A DNA stretch of 64,000 nucleotides from Eledone cirrhosa (Eukaryota): assembly GCA_964016885.1 (NCBI GenBank), contig OZ024743.1, positions 324,198,001 through 324,262,000 on the forward strand, written 5' to 3'. The number at the start of each line of letters is the position of its first letter. Within the stretch, counting starts at the first letter, position 1. The notes beneath the pieces were generated by a model. It had not been told where the DNA came from. It worked only from the letters and a program-made list of their open reading frames with translations, and searched no databases. A program made the position numbers and the translations under genes. Below are positions 1,818 to 63,368 of the stretch, in pieces.

Positions 1818-2360
1818 ATGGAAGGAGCTCATAATATACAATACCCTTCTGATCCCAATAGATACTGAATATTACCTTCTGTGGATACTGACCATCTTTT
1901 GAAATGATTGAAGGTGGTTTATTTCGTTTTCTCAAAGTTCTTTTGTGCTCCACTTTGTTGTAAACAATCCATTTTTCATCACCTATGATCATTCTTTTCA
2001 AAATTTTGTTTTGTTTGAGCAGAGAATTGCAGATCAAAATGCATTCTATTAAATTTGTTCCTGTTAAATTATGAGCCCCCCCCCCCCCCCCCCCCCCCCA
2101 CACACACACACATCATAGCGATTCATGTATCCAAGTGTTTTCAAATACCTTGTAACCCCCATAAGAGATATGTGAAGCATCTCAAAAATGCATCTCATTT
2201 CAAGTAAATAATCTGCACAATATTCAGATAGAAAAATGCATTGAGGTCTCCTCTTTCAGAAAATATATATATATGTCATATGTTTCTGTCACATGATCAA
2301 CTAAATCACATGATTAAAACAACCAATAGAAAAACGCTACAAACTTTTGTTTCAACCCAA
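1818..2360 (-). mobile_element. mariner (Mos1-like) transposon remnant
   Basis: Translation LKRMIIGDEKWIVY...PQKVIFSIYWDQKGIVYYELLP matches the mariner catalytic region; TTGGGTTGAAACAAAAG TIR-like end at ~2360. Confidence 0.85.
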
Positions 2361-2594
2361 CAGATAGATATACATCTCTAGACAGACAGACATAGATAAT
2401 GAGACAGACAGACAGACATTTCTAGAAGTGAAGATTATCAAGTGTTATGTAGTAGTGTGTTAGAAAATAGAAGTAGAGAAGATAATGGGTGGGGTGGAGG
2501 TGAAATGGGGGGGCAGGACTATTGTTGTATTGAGACGAACAAGGAAGATCAATAATAACAAGCAATCAAACAGCGTGGAGTTGGTGCATGCTGG

Positions 2595-2940
2595 ATGAGA
2601 CAACAGCAGCAATAAAAGCAGCAACAGCAGCAATAACAGCAACAATAACAGCAACTACAGCAGCAACAATAATAGCATCAACAGCAGTAGCAGCATTGAC
2701 AACAACAGCAGCAAAAACAACAATAATAGCAGCAGCAATAACAGCAGCAATAACAAACAACAATAACAACAGCAACAGCAGCAGCAGCCACAACAAACAA
2801 CAACAATAACAATAACAACAACAATAATAGCAACATCAATAACAGCAGCAACAACAACAGCAGCAACAATAACAAATGCAGCAACAGCAGCAATGAACAG
2901 CATGAACAGCAACAGCAATAAAGTGTTGCAACAGCAACTG
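2595..2940. repeat. (CAG/CAA/AAT)n trinucleotide-type low-complexity repeat
   Basis: Seen directly. Confidence 0.9.
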
Positions 2941-3396
2941 CTGTGCTATCAACAGATGCTATATATTTGCTATGGTGGTGGTGGGGGTGAGAATGGCAGA
3001 TTTAATGAAATAAGGGTTTACAATGAAGACCCCCAAGGAGAACAAGCATTTTGAATTACACACATACATAAATATACACATACACTTACATATATACACA
3101 CACATGCACATATAGATGTACATATAGATATATTCACATACATACACACACATATATGTATCTTTGTTTCATCCTCTCAATCCACGCTCTGATTTAATCT
3201 GTTTAGATGTCCAAATATTTATCTAGTTGCCTTCACTATCAGTATAGCAATCTATTTTATCTGTGTGTACATACACACATACATACATACATACACAAAT
3301 ACACATACATACATACACAAATACACATACATATATTCATACATATATGCATGCATATATACACATACATAAATTCATACTCACATATATATATAC

Positions 3397-3431
<35 letters not shown>

Positions 3432-3650
3432 AATACAGGCATATATACATATATATGTATGTAGAAGTAATAACAAAAATAACAAAACAAATGGCACAGT
3501 ACATGGAAGAAATATATTAGTTTAACGCTGGAAATAGCAGGAAGAGAGTCTTAACGTTTCAGATACAAGTCCTTCATCAAGATACATGTGTGTATTCAGT
3601 TGGCCATCTTGGTGAATGGAAATACAGCGTAAAAGAGGTTAAAAAAGCTT

Positions 3651-5630: not shown

Positions 5631-6888
5631 ACACACATACACAATCACTTTACACTCACACATAGGCACGCACATACACACTCACACATGCACAATATGT
5701 TTTTTATTTCAGTCATGTTTCTACAATAAGCAATTTACTTTCCAATCACAAGATCCTAGGTTCTATTCTAACCCTGCATTTGTTTTTGTAAACAGTTATT
5801 ACCCATATATTTCATCCTCTATGTTATTTGTACTATGTGATGAACATTTATGTAATTATATCCTAGAAATAAATTATCAAAATATCAGTTTATATTTAAT
5901 CACTTCCACATGTAATCAACATAAACTATAGAGTTTCTCTTATGCAAACAATTAATTCATGAAAATACAAATTTCTCAGTTTGTATGATAGCTCATATAT
6001 CCAGTAATCCTAGTATATATGGCATATCAATCCAAGACTCCAAAACTTAAATATGTTCAACGTTATAGCCATCATAGTTGATGGTATGGGTCTAATAGTA
6101 TTATAATAACTGTATAACTTTCTTGTCCGTCTGTCACACATGAGGCAACGATATGTTGCGAACATTCAAAATATTTTTTAATTAAGAATTTATGAAACAC
6201 GAATGTAAAACAAAAAATGAGAGGATGAAAACTTTCTATAATGTACTCTGTTTATAGCGTTGTTTATCTGTCTGCCATTATCTCTCTATCTATCTATCTG
6301 TCTGTCTAGACTTCTTTTACACTGTATGTCTTTCTCTCTGGCTGACTAATAACATGTGTTCCTTCACCTCTCGACTTTTTACTCTTGTCTCTTTCCATCT
6401 TCCAATAAAAGACTAGCATCTGAAATGTTAAGACTGTTTTCCAACTATATCAAGTGTTAAACAAATATTCCATTATTGTATTGCCATTGTCCACTTTTGT
6501 TGTTTTTTTCCTATTGACTTTTCTTGTTGCCAACTAATTGAGATATAAATTCTGGCTATAAATTCAAGATATATTTTATTTTGAATTTTTGCCACTTTTA
6601 GCACAGTCTAATAGCAAGTGATGTCATTCTTCCACATGTGACGTTACTGTTTGCTGCCAACTACCAAACTCTAGCAGTAATTCTTTAAGGCTCAGTCTGG
6701 ATAAATGGCTTCTCTCTCTGTAATTATTGAGTCCGCTGATGAAGTTTTTGCCATAGTCACTTGCACTGTACAACCACTGTATTCTGCAAGTTACAAATTG
6801 CACACTTATAAAAACCTCGGTGTCTGGACAACCATGTGCAACTGCCAAATTATGAATATACATTTTGTTAGCACTCGAGCAATCGAGA

Positions 6889-8608
6889 CTGATGGACCAG
6901 GTCATGAAAGTAACGGAAAGAGTTATAGTACAGTTGATTAGGGACCGGGTAAAACTAGATGTGATGCAATTTGGGTTTGTACCAGGAAAAGGCACCACTG
7001 ATGCCCTCTTCCTTGTGAGGCAGTTACAGGAAGAGTACCTAGCTAAAAGTAAGCTGCTCTACCTAACATTCGTCGATCTGGAGAAAGCCTTCGACAGAGT
7101 CTCCCGTGCTATAATCTGGTGGGCTCTTAAAAAATTAGGAGTAGATGAATGGCTTGTGAAAGCTGTACAAGCCATGAATAGGGGAGCAGTCAGCAAAGTT
7201 AGGGTTAGCAATGACTATAGCGAGGAATTTAGCATACAGGTCGGTGTCCACCAGGGCTCTGTTCTTAGCCCTCTCCTGTTCATTATAGTTTTGCAGGCAA
7301 TAATGGAGAAGTTTAAGACCGGATGCCCATGGGAATTACTATATGCGGATGATCTCGCACTTATAGCTGAATCTATGGTGGAACTAGAGAAGAAATTCCA
7401 AACATGGAAGCAGGGACTAGAAAGAAAGGGTCTCAAAGTCAACCTGACAAAGACGAAGGTTCTTGTAAGTAGATGAGAAAACAGAACCCAGATCCCCTCA
7501 GGGAAATGGCCTTGCTCAGTATGTAGGAAAGGTGTAGGTAGGAACTCCATCCTCTTCCCCAAATGCAAACAATGGGTACACAAGAGATTTAGTGGGATCT
7601 CAAGAAGCTTAACTAAGAATGTAGGCTTCATATGTAGCAGCTGCGCTGGGACAGCAAGCAGCAAACAGCCACAGGAAACAAGCACCACCAAACTCTAGGA
7701 GGGCTCTGTAGAAACAGTAGACAGCTTCTGCTACTTAGGTGACCAAATTAGCAGTGGAGGTGGGTGTTCAGAAAGTACAATAACTAGGGTAAGAACGGGA
7801 TGGAAGAAGTTCAGGGAGCTACTGCCACTGTTAGCTGCAAAAGGCTTTTCCCTCAAAATGAAAGGCAGACTGTATGATGCGTGTATACGAACAGCAATGT
7901 TACATGGTAGTGAGACCTGGTCGCTGAAGGTGGAAGACTTGCGTATATTAGAAAGAAACGAAGCCTGTATGCTCCGATAGATGTGTAATAGTAATATACG
8001 CGAACGGCAAAGCATAAACGAACTGAGAGAGACCGAGCATAAGAGGAGTCAAATGCTGTGCAGGAGAGGAGGTTGCGTTCGTATGGACATGTGATGCATA
8101 TGAAGGATGACAGCTGCATAAAAAGGTGCAGAACACTAGAAGTCGATGGAAGCCGTGGAGTGGGGAGACCCAAGAAGACCTGGGATGAGGTGATAAAAGC
8201 CGACCTTACCCAATGGCACCTCTCAACGGCGATGACACACGACCGTGACCTCTGGCATCACGCAGTAATACAGAAAACCTGACTCCCCACAGATACAAGG
8301 CAAAACTTGAGCAATTAGACAATATGCCCCCCACCCCTTCCCACTGCAAAGTGGTCGTGGAGGTGCCACGGCAAAAAAGCACCCAACCCACACTGTAAAG
8401 TGGACATGTAGGCACCACAGAAAAAAAGCACCCAGCACTCACTTCAAATGAGGTTGGTGTTAGGAAGGGCATCCAGCTGTTGAAATCAAACCAGAATCAG
8501 TTCCTGTATGAGCAAGACAAGGTCAGCCGACTGGACACTGCCCGCAACAAGACAACCCGTCTAACCCATGCTAGCATGGAAGAACGGACGTAAAACGCTG
8601 ATGATGAT
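6889..8608 (+). mobile_element. RTE-clade LINE, subfamily B, 5'-truncated pseudogenised RT
   Basis: [21 protein letters not shown] and LLYADD motifs; stops near 7474, 7695 and 7978 and a frameshift near 8030; 3' UTR and (GAT)n tail. Confidence 0.95.
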
Positions 8609-11009: not shown

Positions 11010-13226
11010 GTATCATCATCATCATCATCATCAACGTCCGTGTTCCACGCTTGCATGGGTTTGGACGGGGGTAGTCCCACTTGAGGCAAGAGTGATTGTC
11101 TTGCTCGCATAGGACTGTCTGGCAGGTTTTCTACAGTTGGATGCCCTTCCTAACACCAACCACATTTACAGTGTGGGTCTGGGAGGTTTTTACCGTGTTG
11201 CCTACACGGCCACATTACAGCGTGGACTGTGTGTTTTTTTGTCGTGACACCTACACGATCTCATTTGTTTCGGCCTGGATGGCGCGGCACCAACATAACT
11301 TTACATAGAATGGGGTGGTGTGGATGGGGTGGGGGTGGTGGGACGGGGTGTATTTTGTTAGAGATGCCTACTGGCTGGAGTAGGTTTTACTATATATTTA
11401 GGTAAGGCAGGTCTTCTCTGTTACTGAGTACCACCAAAGGTCTCGGTCCAGTGACATTGTCTTGGAGAGGTGTAAGTGTGTGATGTCTGAGTTTATCAGC
11501 TCGTCCCAGGTTTTTCTAGGTCTACCTATTCCGTGACTACCGTCTATCTTTATTGCCCTGCACTTTGTTATACAGCTATCGACTTTCATGCGCATCACGT
11601 GTCCATACCAACGTAGCCTTCTCTCGAGTAAACAACATCTGATCCCTCTTATCTCTAATTTTTTCCTTAGTCCGTTTATGCTTTGCCGTTCACGTATATT
11701 ACTGTTACACATCCAGCGGAGCATGCAAGCTTCGTTCCTCTCTAGTCTGCGTATATCCTCTGCACACAATGCCCAGGTCTCACTGCCATGCAACATTGCT
11801 GTTCGTATGCAGGCATCGTACAACCTGCCTTTCATTTTTAGGGAGAACCCTTTAGCAGCTAATAGTGGTATAAGCTCTCTGAACTTTTTCCAACCAGTTC
11901 TGACTCTAGCTACAGTACTTTCAGAGCACCCTCCCCCACTGCTGATTTTATTGCCCAGGTAACGGAAGCTGTCCACTATTTCTATAGAACCCTCTGCACA
12001 ATTGAAAGAGCTAGTATTTTGTGGGCACTTGCTGCTACTTATTGCACCAGAACACCGGCCACATGTAAAATCTATGTTCTTAGTTAGCTTACCTGTGATC
12101 CCACTACATCTTTTATGTACCCATACTTTGCATTTAGGACATAAAATGGAGTTTCTACCTACGCCTTTCCTACACACCGAGCACGACCATTTCCCAGAAG
12201 GGACCGCCGCCTTGTTTTCTTTCCTACAAACTAGAACTTTGGTCTTAGCCAGGTTAATTTTAAGTCCTTTTGACTCTAGGCCGTGCTTCCATGTTTGGAA
12301 TTTCTTCTCTAGCTCGGCCATTGATTCCGCTATGAGTGTCAGGTCGTCTGCGTATAGGAGTTCCCATGGGCAGCCTGTCTTGAACTCCTCTGTTATAGCC
12401 TGAAGGGCAATAATAAATAGTAGGGGACTGAGAACAGAGCCCTGATGGACGCCAACTTTTACGCTAAACTCTTCACTATATTCGTTGTTAATTCTAACCT
12501 TGCTGACTGTTTCTTTATACATGGCTTGTATAGCCCTCACAAGCCATTCGTCAACGCCTAGTTTTCTAAGAGCCCACCAGATAATGGAGCGGGGGACTCT
12601 GTCGAAGGCTTTCTCCAAGTCGACAAAAGCTAAGTAGAGGGGTTTACCTTTAGCTAGGAACTTCTCCTGTAGTTGTCGTACTATGAAAAGAGCGTCTGTG
12701 GTACTTTTGCCTGACACAAACCCGAACTGCATTTCATCTAGGTCAATTCTCTCTCTGATTAGTTGCGCTATTACTTTTTCCGTGACCTTCATGACCTGGT
12801 CGATTAATTTAATGCCTCTATAGTTACTCCTATCTAGGGCGTCTCCTTTACCCTTATAACAGTTAATGATGATGCTGCTATGCCAGTCCTTCGGAACAAC
12901 CCCATTCTGTACGACTTGGTTAACTATGCAAGTGACCATGGTGTGTCCCACCGTGCCAGATGCCTTCAGCATCTCAGCAACTATTTCCGAAGGCCCAGCC
13001 GCCTTACCCGTCTTCATATCCTTGATTGCCTTACTTATTATACTCCCCTCGACTAACACTGCTGGTCCCTCTATTGGGTCGATATGGGGGAGACTGTCTT
13101 TCTTCCATTTATTCTCCTCATTTAGTAACCTTTCATAGTGACACTTCCAAGCTACCTTCTTATCAGCGTCGGTGATGGCAAGTATGCCATCATCGTTAAG
13201 TACACACTTCTCCCCGACAATATCAC

Positions 13227-13227
<1 letters not shown>
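11010..13227 (-). mobile_element. RTE-clade LINE, subfamily A, 5'-truncated, open RT ORF (11398-13227)
   Basis: Uninterrupted frame from RDIVGEKCV through YKGKGD, NYRGIKL, DLEKAFD, QGSVLSP, YADD, a C4HC3 finger and RLRWYGH; (GAT)n tail; no APE endonuclease present. Confidence 0.97.
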
Positions 13228-13267
<40 letters not shown>

Positions 13268-13339
13268 GAGATTATATTTAATTTAAAAATTTAAAATTTT
13301 TTATAACTGATATAAAGCACTCAACAGATTAGTGGAGTA

Positions 13340-41323: not shown

Positions 41324-43467
<2,144 letters not shown>

Positions 43468-43579
43468 GGAACCAGTAAGACCCCGACAGCTGAGCTCAAG
43501 CCGTTTCGACGGCTAATTCTGGACTAAATGAACATTTATCCTGGTATTTAAATAGCCGATCTTCTCAAGGGGTAATTCC
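43468..43579 (-). ncRNA. type I hammerhead ribozyme with U3-A8 variant core
   Basis: GGAATT-ACCCC-TTGAGAA-GATCGGCTA...TAGCCGTC-GAAA-CGGCT(TGAGCTC)AGCTG-TC|GGGGT...GGTTCC; stems I, II and III all pair; GUC cleavage triplet. Confidence 0.8.
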
Positions 43580-44771
43580 ATATATGGTCAAAGTGATTGT
43601 CAAAAATCAGTAGTAATTCTGTGGTTGCAAATTAGTAGGGGAGATGGTGGCTAAACCTGCCAGTAGGAGAAAGAGGGGAGGGGGTGGAGTAGACCCAATC
43701 AAGCGTTGGTAGTGCCAGCTACAGCTGGGCATGAGGTCAAAGAAGATACAGGGGAGGGGGAGGGGGAGGAAGTCGGAACGGTAGGTAGAACAATGGGGGG
43801 TAGAAATAGGAAAGAAAAAATACTGAGAGTGAAGAAAAGCAAATAAGTGTAAAGAAAAAATTAAATTCTACGACCTAGGTGTCAGGCTATTGTTAGGCGA
43901 GAATAAAATAAAGAAAGAAAGAAAGAAGTAAATAAATGAATAAATAAATAAATAAGGAAATAAGTAAAAGAACTAGGTGGGACGAATTAGGCAAGGACCC
44001 TTTTAAGAGGTATAAGTACGTAAATGATACGGTGACTGGTCAACAAAAGGGGCCAAAATACTAAAGAGACTACCACGAAATAAACAATAAAGGTTTCCAT
44101 CCCGGGCCAGCAACGACCCAGTGCAGCAAAGTGAACTTGTACGACATAATAATTCTGAGTCCCGAGAAAAATATATACTAATGCTAACTCTAAAAGATCT
44201 AAAACAAGCTACATGAAAGTTCGTACGAAATAAAGGTAGAATACGGAGAAATAAGTTCAGAATCCACCCCGCCCAGAAGAAAAGCGAAGCAAGAAATACT
44301 GAAACGAAAAAATAAGGCATAAGTGCCACTAAGAAATATAGAGGGCACAGAGAATAGTGGGAGCGGTCGGAAAAGGGGGGCAAGTATCCGGGGTCTAAGC
44401 CAACTGCTATAAAGGGCGGAGTCCGCCAAATCTATCAAAGACTAGGGGAGGGGGGAGTGGGGGTACTAAGGCTACATGGGGCCAAAGGGCAGCCTCGGGT
44501 GGGCGAGAAAAGACGCCGACAAAGGAGAAGAGCTGGGGTAGAAGGACAAAGGAGAGAGGGGGGAAGGAAATAAAGGATGCGATAAAAGAATACAAAGAAG
44601 ATCTTACGTCTTCCTTGGCAAGCAGGGGTTACCCATTGCAAAATCGGCAACTGGGGTGTTATAGCCCTAGTCTACCCCCCCGGGTCATTATGGGGTTTGA
44701 GGGCGAGGTAAGTCCTACGCAATCTATGTTTACATGCAGTAACCAGTTCATCTTTCTTGTTTAGGAGTTGG
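43468..44771 (-). mobile_element. Penelope-like element (Naiad-type), 5'-truncated: ORF C-terminus plus ~1.2-kb 3' UTR
   Basis: 44672-44771 translates [15 protein letters not shown]..., resembling the LLNKRxExxxxCRH end of PLE GIY-YIG domains; terminal hammerhead; (TA)n arrays on both sides. Confidence 0.75.
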
Positions 44772-45233
<462 letters not shown>

Positions 45234-57861: not shown

Positions 57862-59197
57862 TCATCATCATCATCATCATCATCAGGTTTAGCGTCCGTG
57901 TTCCACGCTTGCATGGGTTTGGACGGGGGTTTTCCCACTTGAGGCAAGAGTGGTTGTCTTGCTCGCATAGGACTGTCTGGCGGGTTTTCTACAGTTGGAT
58001 GCCCTTCCTAACACCAACCACATTTACAGTGTGGGGCTGGGAGGTTTTTACCGTGTTGCCTACACGGCCACATTACAGCGTGGACTGTCTGGCGGGTTTT
58101 CTACAGCTGGATGCCCTTCCTAACACCAACCACATTTACAGTGTGGGGCTGGGAGGTTTTTACCGTGTTGCCTACACGGCCACATTTACAGCGTGGACTG
58201 TGTGTTTTTTGTCGTGACACCTACACGATCTCATTTGTTTCGGCTTGGATGTTGTGGGACCAACATAACTTTACATTGAAAGGGGCGGTGTGGGTGGGGT
58301 GGAGGTGGTGGGACAGGGGTGTGTTTTGATAGAGATGCCTACTGACTGTAGTAGGTTTTTACTTTGTATTTAGGTAAGGCGGGTCTTCTCTATTACTGAG
58401 TACCGCCAAAGGTCTCGGTCCAGTGACATTGTCTTGGAGAGGTGTAAGCGTGTGAGGTCGGAATTTATCAGCTCGTCCCATGTTTTTCTGGGTCTGCCTA
58501 CTCCGTGGCTACCGTCTATCTTTATTGCCCTGCACTTTGTTATACAGCTGTCGTCTTTCATGCGCATCACGTGACCGTACCAACGTAGCCTTCTCTCGAG
58601 TAAACAACATCTGATCCCTCTTATTTCTAATTTTTTCCTTAGTTCGTTTATGCTTTGCCGTTCACGTATATTACTATTGCACATCCAGCGGAGCATGCAA
58701 GCTTCGTTCCTCTCTAGTCTGCGTATATCCTCTGCACACAATGCCCAGGTCTCACTGCCATGCAGCATTGCTGTTCGTATGCAGGCATCGTATAACCTGC
58801 CTTTCATTTTTAGGGAGAACCCTCTAGCGGCTAATAGTGGTATAAGCTCTCTGAACTTTTTCCATCCAGTTCTGACTCTAGCTACTGTACTTTCAGAGCA
58901 CCCTCCCCCACTGCTGATTTTGTCACCCAGATAACGGAAGCTGTCCACTATTTCTATAGAACCCTCTGCGCAGTTGAAGGAGCTAGTATTTTGTGGGCAC
59001 TTGCTGCTACTTATTGCACCAGAGCACCGGCCACATGTAAAATCTATGTTCTTAGTTAGCTTACCTGTGATCCCACTACATCTTTTATGCACCCATACTT
59101 TGCATTTGGGACATAAAATGGAGTTTCTACCTACGCCTTTCCTACACACTGAGCATGGCCATTTCCCCGATGGGACCGCCGCCTTATTTTCTTTCCT
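57862..59197 (-). mobile_element. RTE-clade LINE, subfamily A, 5'-truncated, open frame to 58370
   Basis: C4HC3 finger, FRYLG and RLRWYGH; ~112-bp tandem duplication in the 3' UTR; (GAT)n tail. Confidence 0.97.
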
Positions 59198-59864
59198 AAA
59201 TACATTTATTCATGGATATAACTGTACATCTATGTATACTTATAAACATATATTATTCTTACACATATACATCCAATCAGATAAACACATTCACACACAC
59301 ACTCTCTCTCACACATAAACATACTTATATGCATACATCAATACAAGATATAAGTCAGATAAAATGCTAAACTTCCTTCTAAAATGCCAAAGCAGTAGAT
59401 AAATGCTAAAATTTTCTTTCCAAGATAGGGAATATGAGATTTAATCAAATAGGGATATAGGAACTACTCAGGGGTTTTTATAAATACTGAATCATCAATC
59501 ATAATTAAATTAAATGAATTATAGCATCATTTAACCGTTTTGTGACTATATTTCTAATGAAATACACTCTGTTTTGCTTTCTTACTGGTTGTAATTATTA
59601 GACAGTGGCTATGTTGGGTCCCCCATCTTAAAGGGATTTAGTCAATCATATTGAACTAAGTACATATTTTTCAAGTCTGGTACATATTTTATTGATCTCT
59701 TTTTGTCGAACTGCTAAGTCAGTAAATGTAAATGGAGATAGACATAGGCACACACACATATCCTTAAAAAAAACACATGAGAGAAATATAGGAAACAGAA
59801 AACGTGGAAGAGACAAGCACATGGATAATTCCCACTCTTCTGGGGATTGTTGTAGTGGTGAGCC

Positions 59865-61199: not shown

Positions 61200-61385
61200 A
61201 TAATTGTTTCTACTTTTGGCACAAGACCAGCAATTACCCAGTGCATACTGGTACTTTATTTTATCGACCCCGTAAGGATGAAAGGCAAAGTTAACCTCGG
61301 CGGGATTTGAACTCAGATCATAAAGGGCCGTAACTCTTTGCTGCAAAGCATGGCGTCCGACCTTCTACTGATACTGCCAATCCAT
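61200..61385 (-). mobile_element. Nin/Deu-domain tRNA-SINE, full length
   Basis: Reverse complement of 28253-28440. Confidence 0.9.
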
Positions 61386-61390
61386 CGCCC

Positions 61391-61433
<43 letters not shown>

Positions 61434-61649
61434 TAATAATGAGTAGGAACGAGGTGTCAAAGTATCATCATTATATTATATATTTATTCATGTGTGATGC
61501 ACAATTCACGATTGATTAGCTCAAGGTACGATACGTATCGATCGCGCCAGATTCTGGAATCAATAGCTCATCAGACTCGTGGTTTCCTCAAGGGAACCAT
61601 GTATCTGATGAGCTATATAATATAATGAGGATACTGTGAAACCTCGTTT

Positions 61650-61936
61650 CTAACTTTGCCTTTCATCCTTACGGGGTCGATAAAATAAAGCACCAGTAAT
61701 GTACTGGGATAATTGCTGGCCTTGTGCCAAAAAGTAGAAACAATTATTATTATTGGCAGTATCGGTAGAGGGTCAGACGCCATGCTTTGCAGCACAGTTA
61801 CGTCCCTTTTTTGACTGAGTTTAAATCCCGGCAAGGTTGACTTTGCCTTTCATCCTTACGGGGTCGATAAAATAAAGTACCAGTAATGTACTGGGTGATT
61901 GCTGGCCTTGTGCCAAAAGTAGAAACAATTATTATT
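61650..61936 (+). mobile_element. tandem Nin-domain SINEs (partial 61650-61750 plus full 61752-61936)
   Basis: Nin-like domain and AAAAGTAGAAACAATT end occur twice. Confidence 0.85.
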
Positions 61937-62380: not shown

Positions 62381-62831
62381 TATATGAATGTATATATAGT
62401 GTATTTTGCAATACACTGTATGCTTAATTAAAAGCATTTTGAAGACAATACGCTATTGTTTTAAAGTAGCGACATTGTCGCTTACTTAAATTTTCGGCAA
62501 ACAGGGGAAGATAAGTTGACAGCTCTGTTTCGTACTTTTTGGTACTTATCAAAACTCACTACTCTCCCTGTCTGCCGAAAATTATGTGTGTTGGATTCTT
62601 ATAGAATTCCAGTAACAATCAGGAACTGATTATACAGAGCGGTCGCCGGTCCAGCAGAAATTGAAAATTAGAATTGGTGCTCTGAAATAGCGATATATAT
62701 ATATGAATGTATATACAGTGTATTTTGCAATACACTGTATGCTTCATTAAAAGCATTTTGAAGACCATACGCTTTTGTTTTAAAGTAGCAACATTGTTGC
62801 TTACTTAAATTTTCGGCAGACCCCCTGTCTG
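62381..62831 (-). mobile_element. ~319-bp hairpin-rich unit in partial tandem (retrozyme-like or PLE terminal repeat)
   Basis: 62381-62500 is repeated at 62700-62820; contains a hammerhead; 62621-62686 recurs at 63048-63113. Confidence 0.6.
62489..62583 (-). ncRNA. type I hammerhead ribozyme with U3-A8 variant core and long stem I
   Basis: AATTTTCGGCAGACAGGG..TGAGTT-TTGATAA-GTAC(CAAAAA)GTAC-GAAA-CAGAGCTG-TC|AACTTA..CCCTGTTTGCCGAAAATT. Confidence 0.82.
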
Positions 62832-62917
62832 GGAATAATCATACCTTATCAGTTGAATATTCATCTGATAAGGTATGATTATCCTTGGCTATGTCAAAAT
62901 TTATAAAACACTCTTTG

Positions 62918-63112: not shown

Positions 63113-63368
63113 ACACACACAAAAACAAGATGGCGTAGGACAGAACAAAGGAGAGGCACAAAAACAAAGAAAAGAATCCCACATCACTGAAGAGGTCACA
63201 GAATGTGTGACAAAAGAACTTTGACAATATATGAACAACCGTCCAGTTGTGGAACCAACCAACCAACTGGAAATTTACAAATTTCTTAAATTTATAATAA
63301 ATTGGAGTGAAAGCAACTGGTGCGTGTGTTTCTTATTGGCAACATGACCCTCCCAAAGTATAACAATA
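63113..63368 (+). mobile_element. second copy of the 49723-49991 repeat; hammerhead GAAA mutated to AAAA
   Basis: CTGAAGAGGTCACAGAATGTGTGAC-AAAA-GAACTTTGAC. Confidence 0.75.

What the first reader, a model, noticed from the sequence alone, without database searches (positions are those of the whole stretch)
43468..43579. Second, unrelated U3-A8 hammerhead at the 3' terminus of a Penelope-like element
Seen (minus strand): ACCCC/GGGGT stem I (plus GGAATT/GGTTCC), core UUGAGAA, long stem II (GA-CGGCTA/TAGCCG-TC with an inner GGA-TAAATG/CATTTA-TCC hairpin), GAAA, 6-bp stem III containing the self-complementary TGAGCTCA, and a GUC site ~17 nt from the element end. No primary similarity to the 62.5k ribozyme is visible, yet it has the same core variant. 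Known: PLEs carry type I hammerheads in their terminal repeats. Inference: a U3-A8 hammerhead class is shared among retroelement families in this genome.
Basis: partly seen in the sequence, partly recalled or inferred. Interest (0 to 1): 0.85.

Follow-up and report, generated by a model that had tools for sequence, protein, structure and literature searches.

The report
Penelope hammerhead with a nested promoter
A hammerhead ribozyme fold with an already published U-A core swap sits at the end of a young Penelope-like jumping gene, and the points where its thousands of genomic copies break off suggest that it likely cuts some of its RNA in the animal and likely hides the element's own transcription start.

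Summary
Confirmed. 43468-43579 (minus strand) is a type I U3-A8 hammerhead at the 3' end of a 1.3-kb, 5'-truncated copy of a young Hydra-clade Penelope-like element (3,531-nt unit, 717-aa RT/GIY-YIG ORF). What the copies add: their 5' breakpoints pile up exactly at the predicted scissile bond (22 of 88 breaks over 33 positions) and, far more, at A43525 inside stem II, where an extra G follows (51 of 67 non-reference letters), a cap signature. So the ribozyme likely cleaves about 4-5% of templates, and the capped mRNA likely starts inside it. Against: an older subfamily and two retrozymes show no cleavage-site peak; no RNA data or assay. Stem II covaries at two pairs. All five U3-A8 families use C17. 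Verdict: new variant of a known kind, with a testable handle on the open question of what PLE hammerheads do.

The parts
43466..44772 (-). 5'-truncated copy of a young Hydra-clade Penelope-like element, 1,307 nt, inserted in a (TA)n-type microsatellite
   Evidence: 99.8% identical to positions 2225-3531 of the intact 3,531-nt unit in L031; flanks seen
44672..44770 (-). last 32 codons and stop of the RT/GIY-YIG ORF
   Evidence: tblastn 100% to residues 686-717 of the L031 ORF
43580..44671 (-). long pyrimidine-rich 3' UTR / pseudo-LTR
43468..43579 (-). type I hammerhead ribozyme, U3-A8 core, 54-nt stem II
43562..43568 (-). 5' core strand U3-U4-G5-A6-N7-A8-A9; N7 takes all four bases among subfamilies
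43508..43561 (-). stem II: G10.1-C11.1, small internal loop, 6-9-bp helix with two compensatory pairs, weakly conserved inner hairpin
43547..43554 (-). TATA-like 8-mer 29 nt upstream of the inferred start; present in subfamilies A-C, absent in D, so doubtful
   Evidence: TATA consensus recalled
43522..43527 (-). inferred capped transcription start at A43525 in an initiator-like hexamer, inside stem II
   Evidence: 5' breakpoint wall at -40/-41 and extra G; initiator consensus recalled
43486..43504 (-). stem III, 5 conserved pairs plus a sixth in subfamilies A/B, loop with a conserved 6-nt palindrome
   Evidence: self-dimer -26.3 kcal/mol
43484..43485 (-). predicted scissile bond C17/G1.1
   Evidence: hammerhead numbering; pile-up of copy 5' ends at G1.1
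43465..43468 (-). proximal 3' terminus (inferred RT start 17-20 nt past the cut); the alternative terminus about 84 nt further on is not in this copy
   Evidence: 28 and 17 of 109 records end at the two sites

Best explanation
This is the type I hammerhead of the pseudo-LTR of an active Hydra-clade Penelope-like retrotransposon; it likely cleaves a minority of read-through transcripts at 43485/43484, and the element's capped mRNA likely starts inside its stem II at A43525. Shown: the fold, its place about 190 nt before the ORF in head-to-tail 3,531-nt units, two 3' termini just past the cut site, and two pile-ups of copy 5' ends. Inferred: (1) Pol II starts at A43525, so the mRNA's 5' end carries only the 3' half of the ribozyme and cannot cut itself in cis; (2) after ORF and UTR the transcript reaches a complete ribozyme, which cuts some molecules, trimming the unit RNA and freeing a 5'-OH piece that begins at G1.1; (3) the RT nicks (TA)n DNA and starts at two internal sites 17-20 and about 100 nt past the cut, one per DNA strand, and runs to whatever 5' end the template has: the cap (most short copies), the cut (about 4-5% of arms), or on through an uncut or re-joined ribozyme (long copies such as this one). 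U3 likely forces C17, because U3 would pair with A17 and extend stem I.
For: Breaks at G1.1: 22 of 88 breakpoints over 33 positions (hand count of the first 100 of 2,311 rows, 12 rows were point changes only; p 2e-14 by rows, 2e-10 by about 60 loci); in 13 of 15 inverted insertions with one arm at G1.1 the other arm ends within 2 nt of it (hand count), as expected of a fixed template end; 59/58 exact palindromes centred there; A before G1.1 144 times against A before C17 63 times; 14,468 arms read through. A 7-G run elsewhere in the element shows no break at its edge in 35 rows. One of 21 ORF-bearing copies starts at the cut (L060). Cap: 86 of 99 breaks in -60..-27 fall in -45..-35, 37 at -41/-40, none in -46..-60 (first 100 of 5,988 rows); where A-41 meets (TA)n the extra letter is G 51, A 11, C 5, with 33 reference T (first 100 of 202); G precedes 15 of 20 breaks at -41 but 6 of 22 at +1 (p 0.005); untemplated 5' G as cap mark: PMC9341517 passages. 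Covariation: G-C in 32 of 33 A-C rows against A-U in 10 of 11 D rows; U-A in 14 of 15 C rows against G-C in 9 of 11 D rows. U3-A8 with C17 in 5 of 5 families, C3-G8 with C17 in 1 of 16 (p 3e-4).
Against: No cleavage assay and no RNA ends: the one RNA run laid covers only 3852-3985 of L031, not the ribozyme, and all runs are contigs. The +1 peak is not general: older subfamily C, with the same sequence at the site, shows about 3-4 of roughly 55 breaks there (hand count of 100 of 2,739 rows); the 62.5k retrozyme gave 1 match; the 592-nt repeat about 8 of 75 at +1, level with +2 and -5. The exact palindromes are ambiguous because C17-G1.1 offers 2 nt of microhomology. Among close subfamilies RNAalifold finds 0 of 16 pairs with a double change; the two compensatory pairs are single evolutionary events, and part of each alignment was fixed by the search pattern. 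The TATA-like box is absent in subfamily D. In the anole PLE, cleavage was dispensable in vitro and no RNA-seq ends were seen at the site (PMC11167929). The five U3-A8 families may not be independent.
Confidence: 0.63

Rival explanations
1. The fold is kept mainly as a structural or protein-binding landmark next to the RT start sites; it seldom or never cuts in vivo, and the +1 pile-up is an RT stall at the three-way junction or a minor second start site.
For: About 95% of arms read through the site; no peak in subfamily C; cleavage dispensable in the anole PLE in vitro; PLE hammerheads show low activity in vitro (PMC4209133).
Against: The peak is one base sharp, at G1.1 and not at helix entries (-2: 2 rows, -24: 2 rows); both arms stop together; no G excess as a capped start would give; subfamily C has the same local sequence yet no peak, which a sequence-driven stall would not predict; U3-C17 coupling fits selection on the catalytic fold.
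Confidence: 0.2
2. The ribozyme cuts efficiently and the unit RNA is re-ligated to a circle, which is the productive template; rolling-circle reverse transcription makes the tandem arrays and restores the promoter, and the +1 copies are unligated leftovers.
For: Exact 3,531-nt head-to-tail arrays with a partial first unit; RT starts downstream of the cut, so long copies need an intact junction; the model is proposed in PMC4209133; a copy made from a capped unit RNA alone would lack sequence upstream of A43525.
Against: Read-through transcripts of existing arrays explain the same structures; a re-ligated junction is identical to an uncut one, so DNA cannot show it; no RNA data.
Confidence: 0.15
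3. Chance resemblance to a hammerhead.
For: Ordinary folding energy; no Rfam hit.
Against: 67 real against 1-2 shuffled sites; hammerheads at the same place in related elements; covariation and free N7.
Confidence: 0.02

Closest known systems
Hammerheads of Hydra-clade Penelope-like elements (Craig et al. 2021, PMC8557442, section 11 and supplementary file S2)
   Same: Type I fold in the pseudo-LTR of a C-terminal GIY-YIG PLE with RW(K/R), DKT, CxCX5C, CxxC and CxH motifs; (TA)n target; tandem and inverted insertions with a tail.
   Different: All 26 Hydra rows of file S2 have C3-G8 and short stem II loops, C17 in 4; 16 of 16 same-strand hits in 77 metagenome relatives are C3-G8. Here: U3-A8, C17, a 54-nt stem II, an 84-nt tail (30-40 nt is usual) and a 3.5-kb unit (usually under 3 kb).
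U3-A8 minimal hammerheads of Schistosoma mansoni Cercyon PLEs (Cervera and De la Pena 2014, PMC4209133)
   Same: Same core covariation in a PLE terminal repeat.
   Different: Those are minimal motifs with little or no helix III, thought to work as dimers; this one has a full stem III and folds as a monomer by prediction.
Poseidon PAc of the green anole (Frangieh et al. 2024, PMC11167929)
   Same: Two internal RT start sites downstream of the hammerhead that define the tail; both DNA strands extended; AT-rich target.
   Different: C3-G8 minimal ribozyme overlapping the start codon, active only with protein; no RNA ends found at its site. Here genomic junctions pile up at the site.
Penelope of Drosophila virilis promoter (Schostak et al. 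2008, PMC2377424)
   Same: Start site inside the pseudo-LTR with an initiator element.
   Different: There the start lies upstream of an intron whose end meets helix I; here the inferred start lies inside stem II, and no intron was seen.
Metazoan non-LTR retrozymes (PMC7229834; bioRxiv 10.64898/2026.07.22.740005)
   Same: Type I hammerhead in tandem repeats, thought to be moved by PLEs; the 62.5k repeat is of this kind.
   Different: Non-coding and 170-600 nt; the present element is autonomous.

Membership tests
Type I hammerhead ribozyme | Three helices around the core, ends in helix I | tested here: met
Type I hammerhead ribozyme | Core N3-UGA-N7-N8-A9, G12-A13-A14, A15.1-U16.1, H17, with a Watson-Crick 3-8 pair | tested here: met
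   U3-A8, C17; N7 free, H17 is C in 40 of 44 rows and U in 4; subfamily D search left 3 and 8 open as Y/R and returned U3-A8 in most of 100 rows
Type I hammerhead ribozyme | Helix covariation among relatives | tested here: inconclusive
   two compensatory pairs in stem II; none in stems I and III, which hardly vary
Type I hammerhead ribozyme | Loop I-loop II tertiary contact | tested here: inconclusive
   a 5-bp match between the stem II loop and the stem I loop exists in the youngest subfamily but is broken in others
Type I hammerhead ribozyme | Self-cleavage at H17 | not testable with these tools
   indirect only: copy 5' ends at G1.1, absent in subfamily C
Penelope-like element | Single ORF with RT and GIY-YIG endonuclease | tested here: met
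   717-aa ORF, YRDD and YIG..R..H motifs conserved in 34-36 of 36 aligned relatives; Pfam and PDB sequence searches gave no relevant hit
Penelope-like element | Partial-tandem and inverted insertions, pseudo-LTR, optional tail | tested here: met
Hydra clade of PLEs | RWK motif, DKT, CxCX5C linker, CxxC and CxH around the conserved E and N, C-terminal endonuclease | tested here: met
   RWR (25 of 36 relatives RWK), DKT 117-119, CxCX5C 572-580, CxxC 670-673, CxH 698-700 against section 11 of PMC8557442
Hydra clade of PLEs | Insertion into (TA)n | tested here: met
Hydra clade of PLEs | Placement in an RT tree with reference Hydra families | not tested
   no tree with named references was built
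Minimal PLE hammerhead (min-HHR) | Helix III absent or 1-2 bp, obligate dimer | tested here: not met
   5-6-bp stem III, though the loop keeps a palindrome
Non-LTR retrozyme | Non-coding unit of a few hundred nt | tested here: not met
   the unit is 3,531 nt with an intact ORF

The most novel reading that the evidence does not exclude
A ribozyme and a Pol II start site are nested in one sequence: the mRNA starts inside stem II and so carries a disarmed half-ribozyme at its 5' end and a complete one only at its 3' end, and thousands of genomic junctions record both the cap and the in vivo cut. The youngest subfamily gained base pairs in stems II and III together with a cleavage footprint that an older subfamily lacks, which would make this a natural series for testing what hammerhead cleavage does for Penelope-like elements.
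Probability: 0.45. Interest if true: 0.75.

Novelty: new variant of a known kind. Interest (0 to 1): 0.55.

Why it matters
Hammerheads are near universal in canonical Penelope-like elements, yet their role is called unclear (PMC8557442) and the one reconstituted element needed no cleavage and showed no RNA ends at the site (PMC11167929). Here the 5' junctions of a very young, high-copy family act as a fossil 5' RACE: they point to a cut at the exact scissile bond in a few per cent of templates and to a capped start inside the ribozyme. That gives base-exact predictions for a cheap assay, a subfamily series with and without the footprint, and a method that any high-copy PLE genome allows. The U3-A8 core by itself matters little.

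Tried and rejected
Rfam scans of the window and of the pseudo-LTR: no hammerhead hit; the RF00163 search of the genome gave 74 matches, 19 over cut-off, none of them this family as far as the 30 loci were scanned. Pfam and PDB sequence searches of the ORF and its alignment: nothing relevant. Viral contigs: no relative. Protein searches of the own genome returned only the same young family, so older subfamilies were found by sampling and patterns. Sequencing runs: 7 listed, one RNA run with a small share; 4 laid, all contigs, no RNA over the ribozyme. Naiad or Nematis clade: rejected for Hydra on motifs. A splice acceptor as cause of the -41 wall: rejected, no shared upstream exon in 99 junctions. 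G-run as cause of the +1 peak: not supported. A pseudoknot between stem II loop and stem I loop: not conserved. Derivation of the 62.5k or 592-nt repeats from this element: no similarity. Cleavage footprint in two retrozymes: not found. Two of 23 descriptor families (one G3-C8, one A3-U8, single weak hits) were left out of the U3/C17 test. Earlier scan findings: none returned.

Full report
OBSERVATION. The motif is there as described (coordinates). On the minus strand a 5-bp stem I with a distal helix encloses the core U3-U4-G5-A6-G7-A8-A9 (43568-43562), a 54-nt stem II, G12-A13-A14, a 6-bp stem III and a GUC site whose scissile bond is 43485/43484, 17 nt from the element end. The lowest-energy fold is this junction, although its energy is no better than shuffles (z -0.39). 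A structure descriptor finds two sites in the window, this one and 62552, and 67 sites in 120 stretches of 10 kb from the genome against 1 and 2 in shuffles. Rfam does not see it. Small corrections: the inner hairpin has a 4-nt loop whose G is the one common polymorphism (43 of 109 records); the A10.2-U11.2 pair and the sixth pair of stem III are not kept in older subfamilies.

THE ELEMENT. The 295 nt at the end of the copy match 40 of 40 scored places of the 3.0-Gb own genome at 100% (406 candidates). An array on contig C1 has a period of 3,531 nt and an intact 717-aa ORF that starts about 190 nt after the cut site. The window holds the last 1,307 nt of that unit at 99.8% identity, between (TA)n tracts. 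All 150 scored matches to a 210-aa RT piece are 99-100% identical: the family is very young. Pfam and PDB sequence searches name nothing, but the ORF and 35 relatives (38-54% identity) carry RW(K/R), DKT, YRDD, CxCX5C, YIG, CxxC and CxH, the diagnostic set of the Hydra clade of PLEs (PMC8557442 section 11). No tree with named references was built. Copies end at two places, 17-20 nt and about 100 nt past the cut (28 and 17 of 109 records; 61 run on), which matches the two RT start sites and the tail shown for the anole PLE (PMC11167929).

IS U3-A8 NEW OR SHARED? It is published as a natural pair (PMC3088659) and in PLEs, with about 1,300 hits in Schistosoma (PMC4209133). It departs from its own clade: all 26 Hydra rows in supplementary file S2 of PMC8557442 and 16 of 16 same-strand hits in 77 metagenome relatives are C3-G8 with short stem II. 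In this genome 11 of 67 sampled sites and 5 of 23 families are U3-A8, 55 sites and 16 families C3-G8. The five are this PLE lineage, a second Hydra family at 43% protein identity (L215), the ~320-nt repeat at 62.5k, a 592-nt tandem repeat with an equally long stem II (L261) and one single hit; their flanks share nothing (best E 0.22). All five have C17, against 1 of 16 C3-G8 families (p 3e-4) and 4 of 26 published Hydra rows. A likely reason, by inference from the fold: U3 and A17 would pair and extend stem I, as C3 does with G17 (recalled). The families may not be independent.

COVARIATION. Older subfamilies are abundant (2,550 matches for B/C types; 126 for D). Among 32 close sequences no predicted pair shows a double change (0 of 16; 85.9% of cells paired, one weak double change). 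With subfamily D, stem II shows G-C (32 of 33 rows) against A-U (10 of 11) and U-A (14 of 15 C rows) against G-C (9 of 11 D rows); N7 takes all four bases; stems I and III hardly vary (44 rows). These are two events on one tree, and the patterns fixed part of each sequence, so support is real but thin.

WHERE COPIES BREAK OFF. Most insertions are short inverted pairs whose two arms begin at the two 3' termini. Their 5' ends mark where the RT left the template. In the window -28..+5 (G1.1 = +1), a pattern returned 2,311 arms; of the first 100 rows 12 were point changes or indels only, and of 88 breaks 22 lie at +1, 6 at C17 (5 of them ambiguous through a CG overlap), 8 at a palindrome at -25, and at most 6 elsewhere (hand count; p 2e-14 by rows, 2e-10 by about 60 loci). 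In 13 of 15 inverted insertions with one arm at +1 the other arm ends within 2 nt of it. Whole-genome counts agree: 59/58 exact palindromes centred on the bond, A before G1.1 144 times against A before C17 63 times (both include some point changes). With 14,468 arms reading through, about 4-5% stop at the cut. One of 21 ORF-bearing copies starts there. A 7-G run elsewhere shows no break at its edge (35 rows, 5 undecidable).

A much larger pile-up lies inside stem II. Of 5,988 arms broken in -60..-27, the first 100 rows give 86 of 99 breaks in -45..-35, 37 at -41/-40 and none in -46..-60 (hand count). Where A-41 (window 43525) joins the (TA)n target the letter between is G 51, A 11, C 5, reference T 33 (first 100 of 202 rows). 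An untemplated 5' G is read as a copied cap in L1 insertions (PMC9341517). G precedes 15 of 20 breaks at -41 but 6 of 22 at +1 (p 0.005), as expected of a capped and an uncapped end. A-41 sits in an initiator-like hexamer kept in all four subfamilies (consensus recalled). A TATA-like box 29 nt upstream exists in A-C but not D, and the Drosophila Penelope promoter is TATA-less (PMC2377424), so that box is doubtful.

RESULTS AGAINST. The +1 peak is not general. Subfamily C has the same sequence at the site but about 3-4 of roughly 55 breaks there (hand count, 100 of 2,739 rows). This speaks against a sequence-driven stall, but also means most templates of that subfamily were uncut or re-joined. 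The 62.5k repeat gave one match; the 592-nt repeat about 8 of 75 breaks at +1, level with +2 and -5 (93 rows). No RNA evidence was obtainable: of 7 runs listed 4 were laid, all contigs, and the RNA run does not cover the ribozyme.

MECHANISM. Shown: fold, position, tandem and inverted structure, two 3' termini, two 5' pile-ups. Inferred: Pol II starts at A43525, so the mRNA begins with the 3' half of the ribozyme and cannot cut its own 5' end in cis; it meets a whole ribozyme only after ORF and UTR, where a minority of molecules is cut, trimming the unit and freeing a piece that starts at G1.1; the RT starts 17-20 or about 100 nt past the cut, one start per DNA strand, and runs to the cap, to the cut, or through an uncut or re-joined site, as for the window's 1.3-kb copy. 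Rivals: a landmark that rarely cuts (0.2); efficient cut and circle as the productive template (0.15), which DNA cannot separate from read-through.

LITERATURE SEEN. PMC4209133 parts 1-2 of 4; PMC11167929 parts 1-2 of 4 and passages; PMC8557442 passages, section 11, supplement searches and part 2 of 59; bioRxiv 10.64898/2026.07.22.740005 part 1 of 5 (21; its supplements are closed); passages of PMC3088659, PMC7229834, PMC2377424, PMC9341517. Not seen: Arkhipova 2017 on Terminons, Luense 2017 on PLE hammerhead variants, Przybilski 2007 on the 3-8 pair (recalled only); they may already hold long-stem or U3-A8 PLE variants or the U3-C17 link. Ten searches of the open library showed no report of PLE copy ends at a hammerhead site or of a start site inside a PLE hammerhead; subscription papers are not covered.

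VERDICT. Real; a new variant of a known kind. The core swap is ordinary; the junction record of a likely in vivo cut and of a likely nested capped start makes an open question testable. Interest 0.55.

Noticed in passing
window 62390-62820, minus strand (hammerhead 62511-62559): About 320-nt non-coding partial-tandem repeat of retrozyme type with a compact U3-A8, C17 hammerhead; 2,233 candidates in the genome, best 40 at 93-100%.
   Followed up: partly
window about 63180-63230, plus strand: Degenerate member of a frequent C3-G8 hammerhead family (family 2); further C3-G8-type fragments near 62865 and 62925.
   Followed up: no
own genome, 120 stretches of 10 kb (L211-L290, L321-L360): 67 hammerhead-like sites in 1.2 Mb, at least 20 families; extrapolates to roughly 160,000 in the genome. 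Hydra-PLE ORF remnants in 19 of 120 stretches.
   Followed up: partly
L261:1080-2400 and L229:3560-3660: 592-nt tandem repeat with a U3-A8 hammerhead whose stem II is 57-59 nt and has the same 2-bp, bulge, helix start as the one studied, without sequence similarity; whether it also nests a start site was not tested.
   Followed up: partly
L215:7070-9950: Second Hydra-clade family (43% protein identity, broken ORF) preceded by a compact U3-A8 hammerhead.
   Followed up: partly
L153:2765 and 5268, minus strand: G3-C8 hammerhead, twice at 2,503-nt spacing, on the strand opposite the matched ORF in a marine metagenome contig.
   Followed up: no
window 11398-13290 (-), 58370-59209 (-), 6856-7476 (+): LINE-type RT frames; the first two carry a PHD finger after the RT.
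   Followed up: no
window 61200-61900: Several direct and inverted copies of a short SINE-like repeat.
   Followed up: no
L031:6590-6610 and copies: The G run at the end of the ORF varies from 7 to 20 or more among copies, changing the last codons.
   Followed up: no
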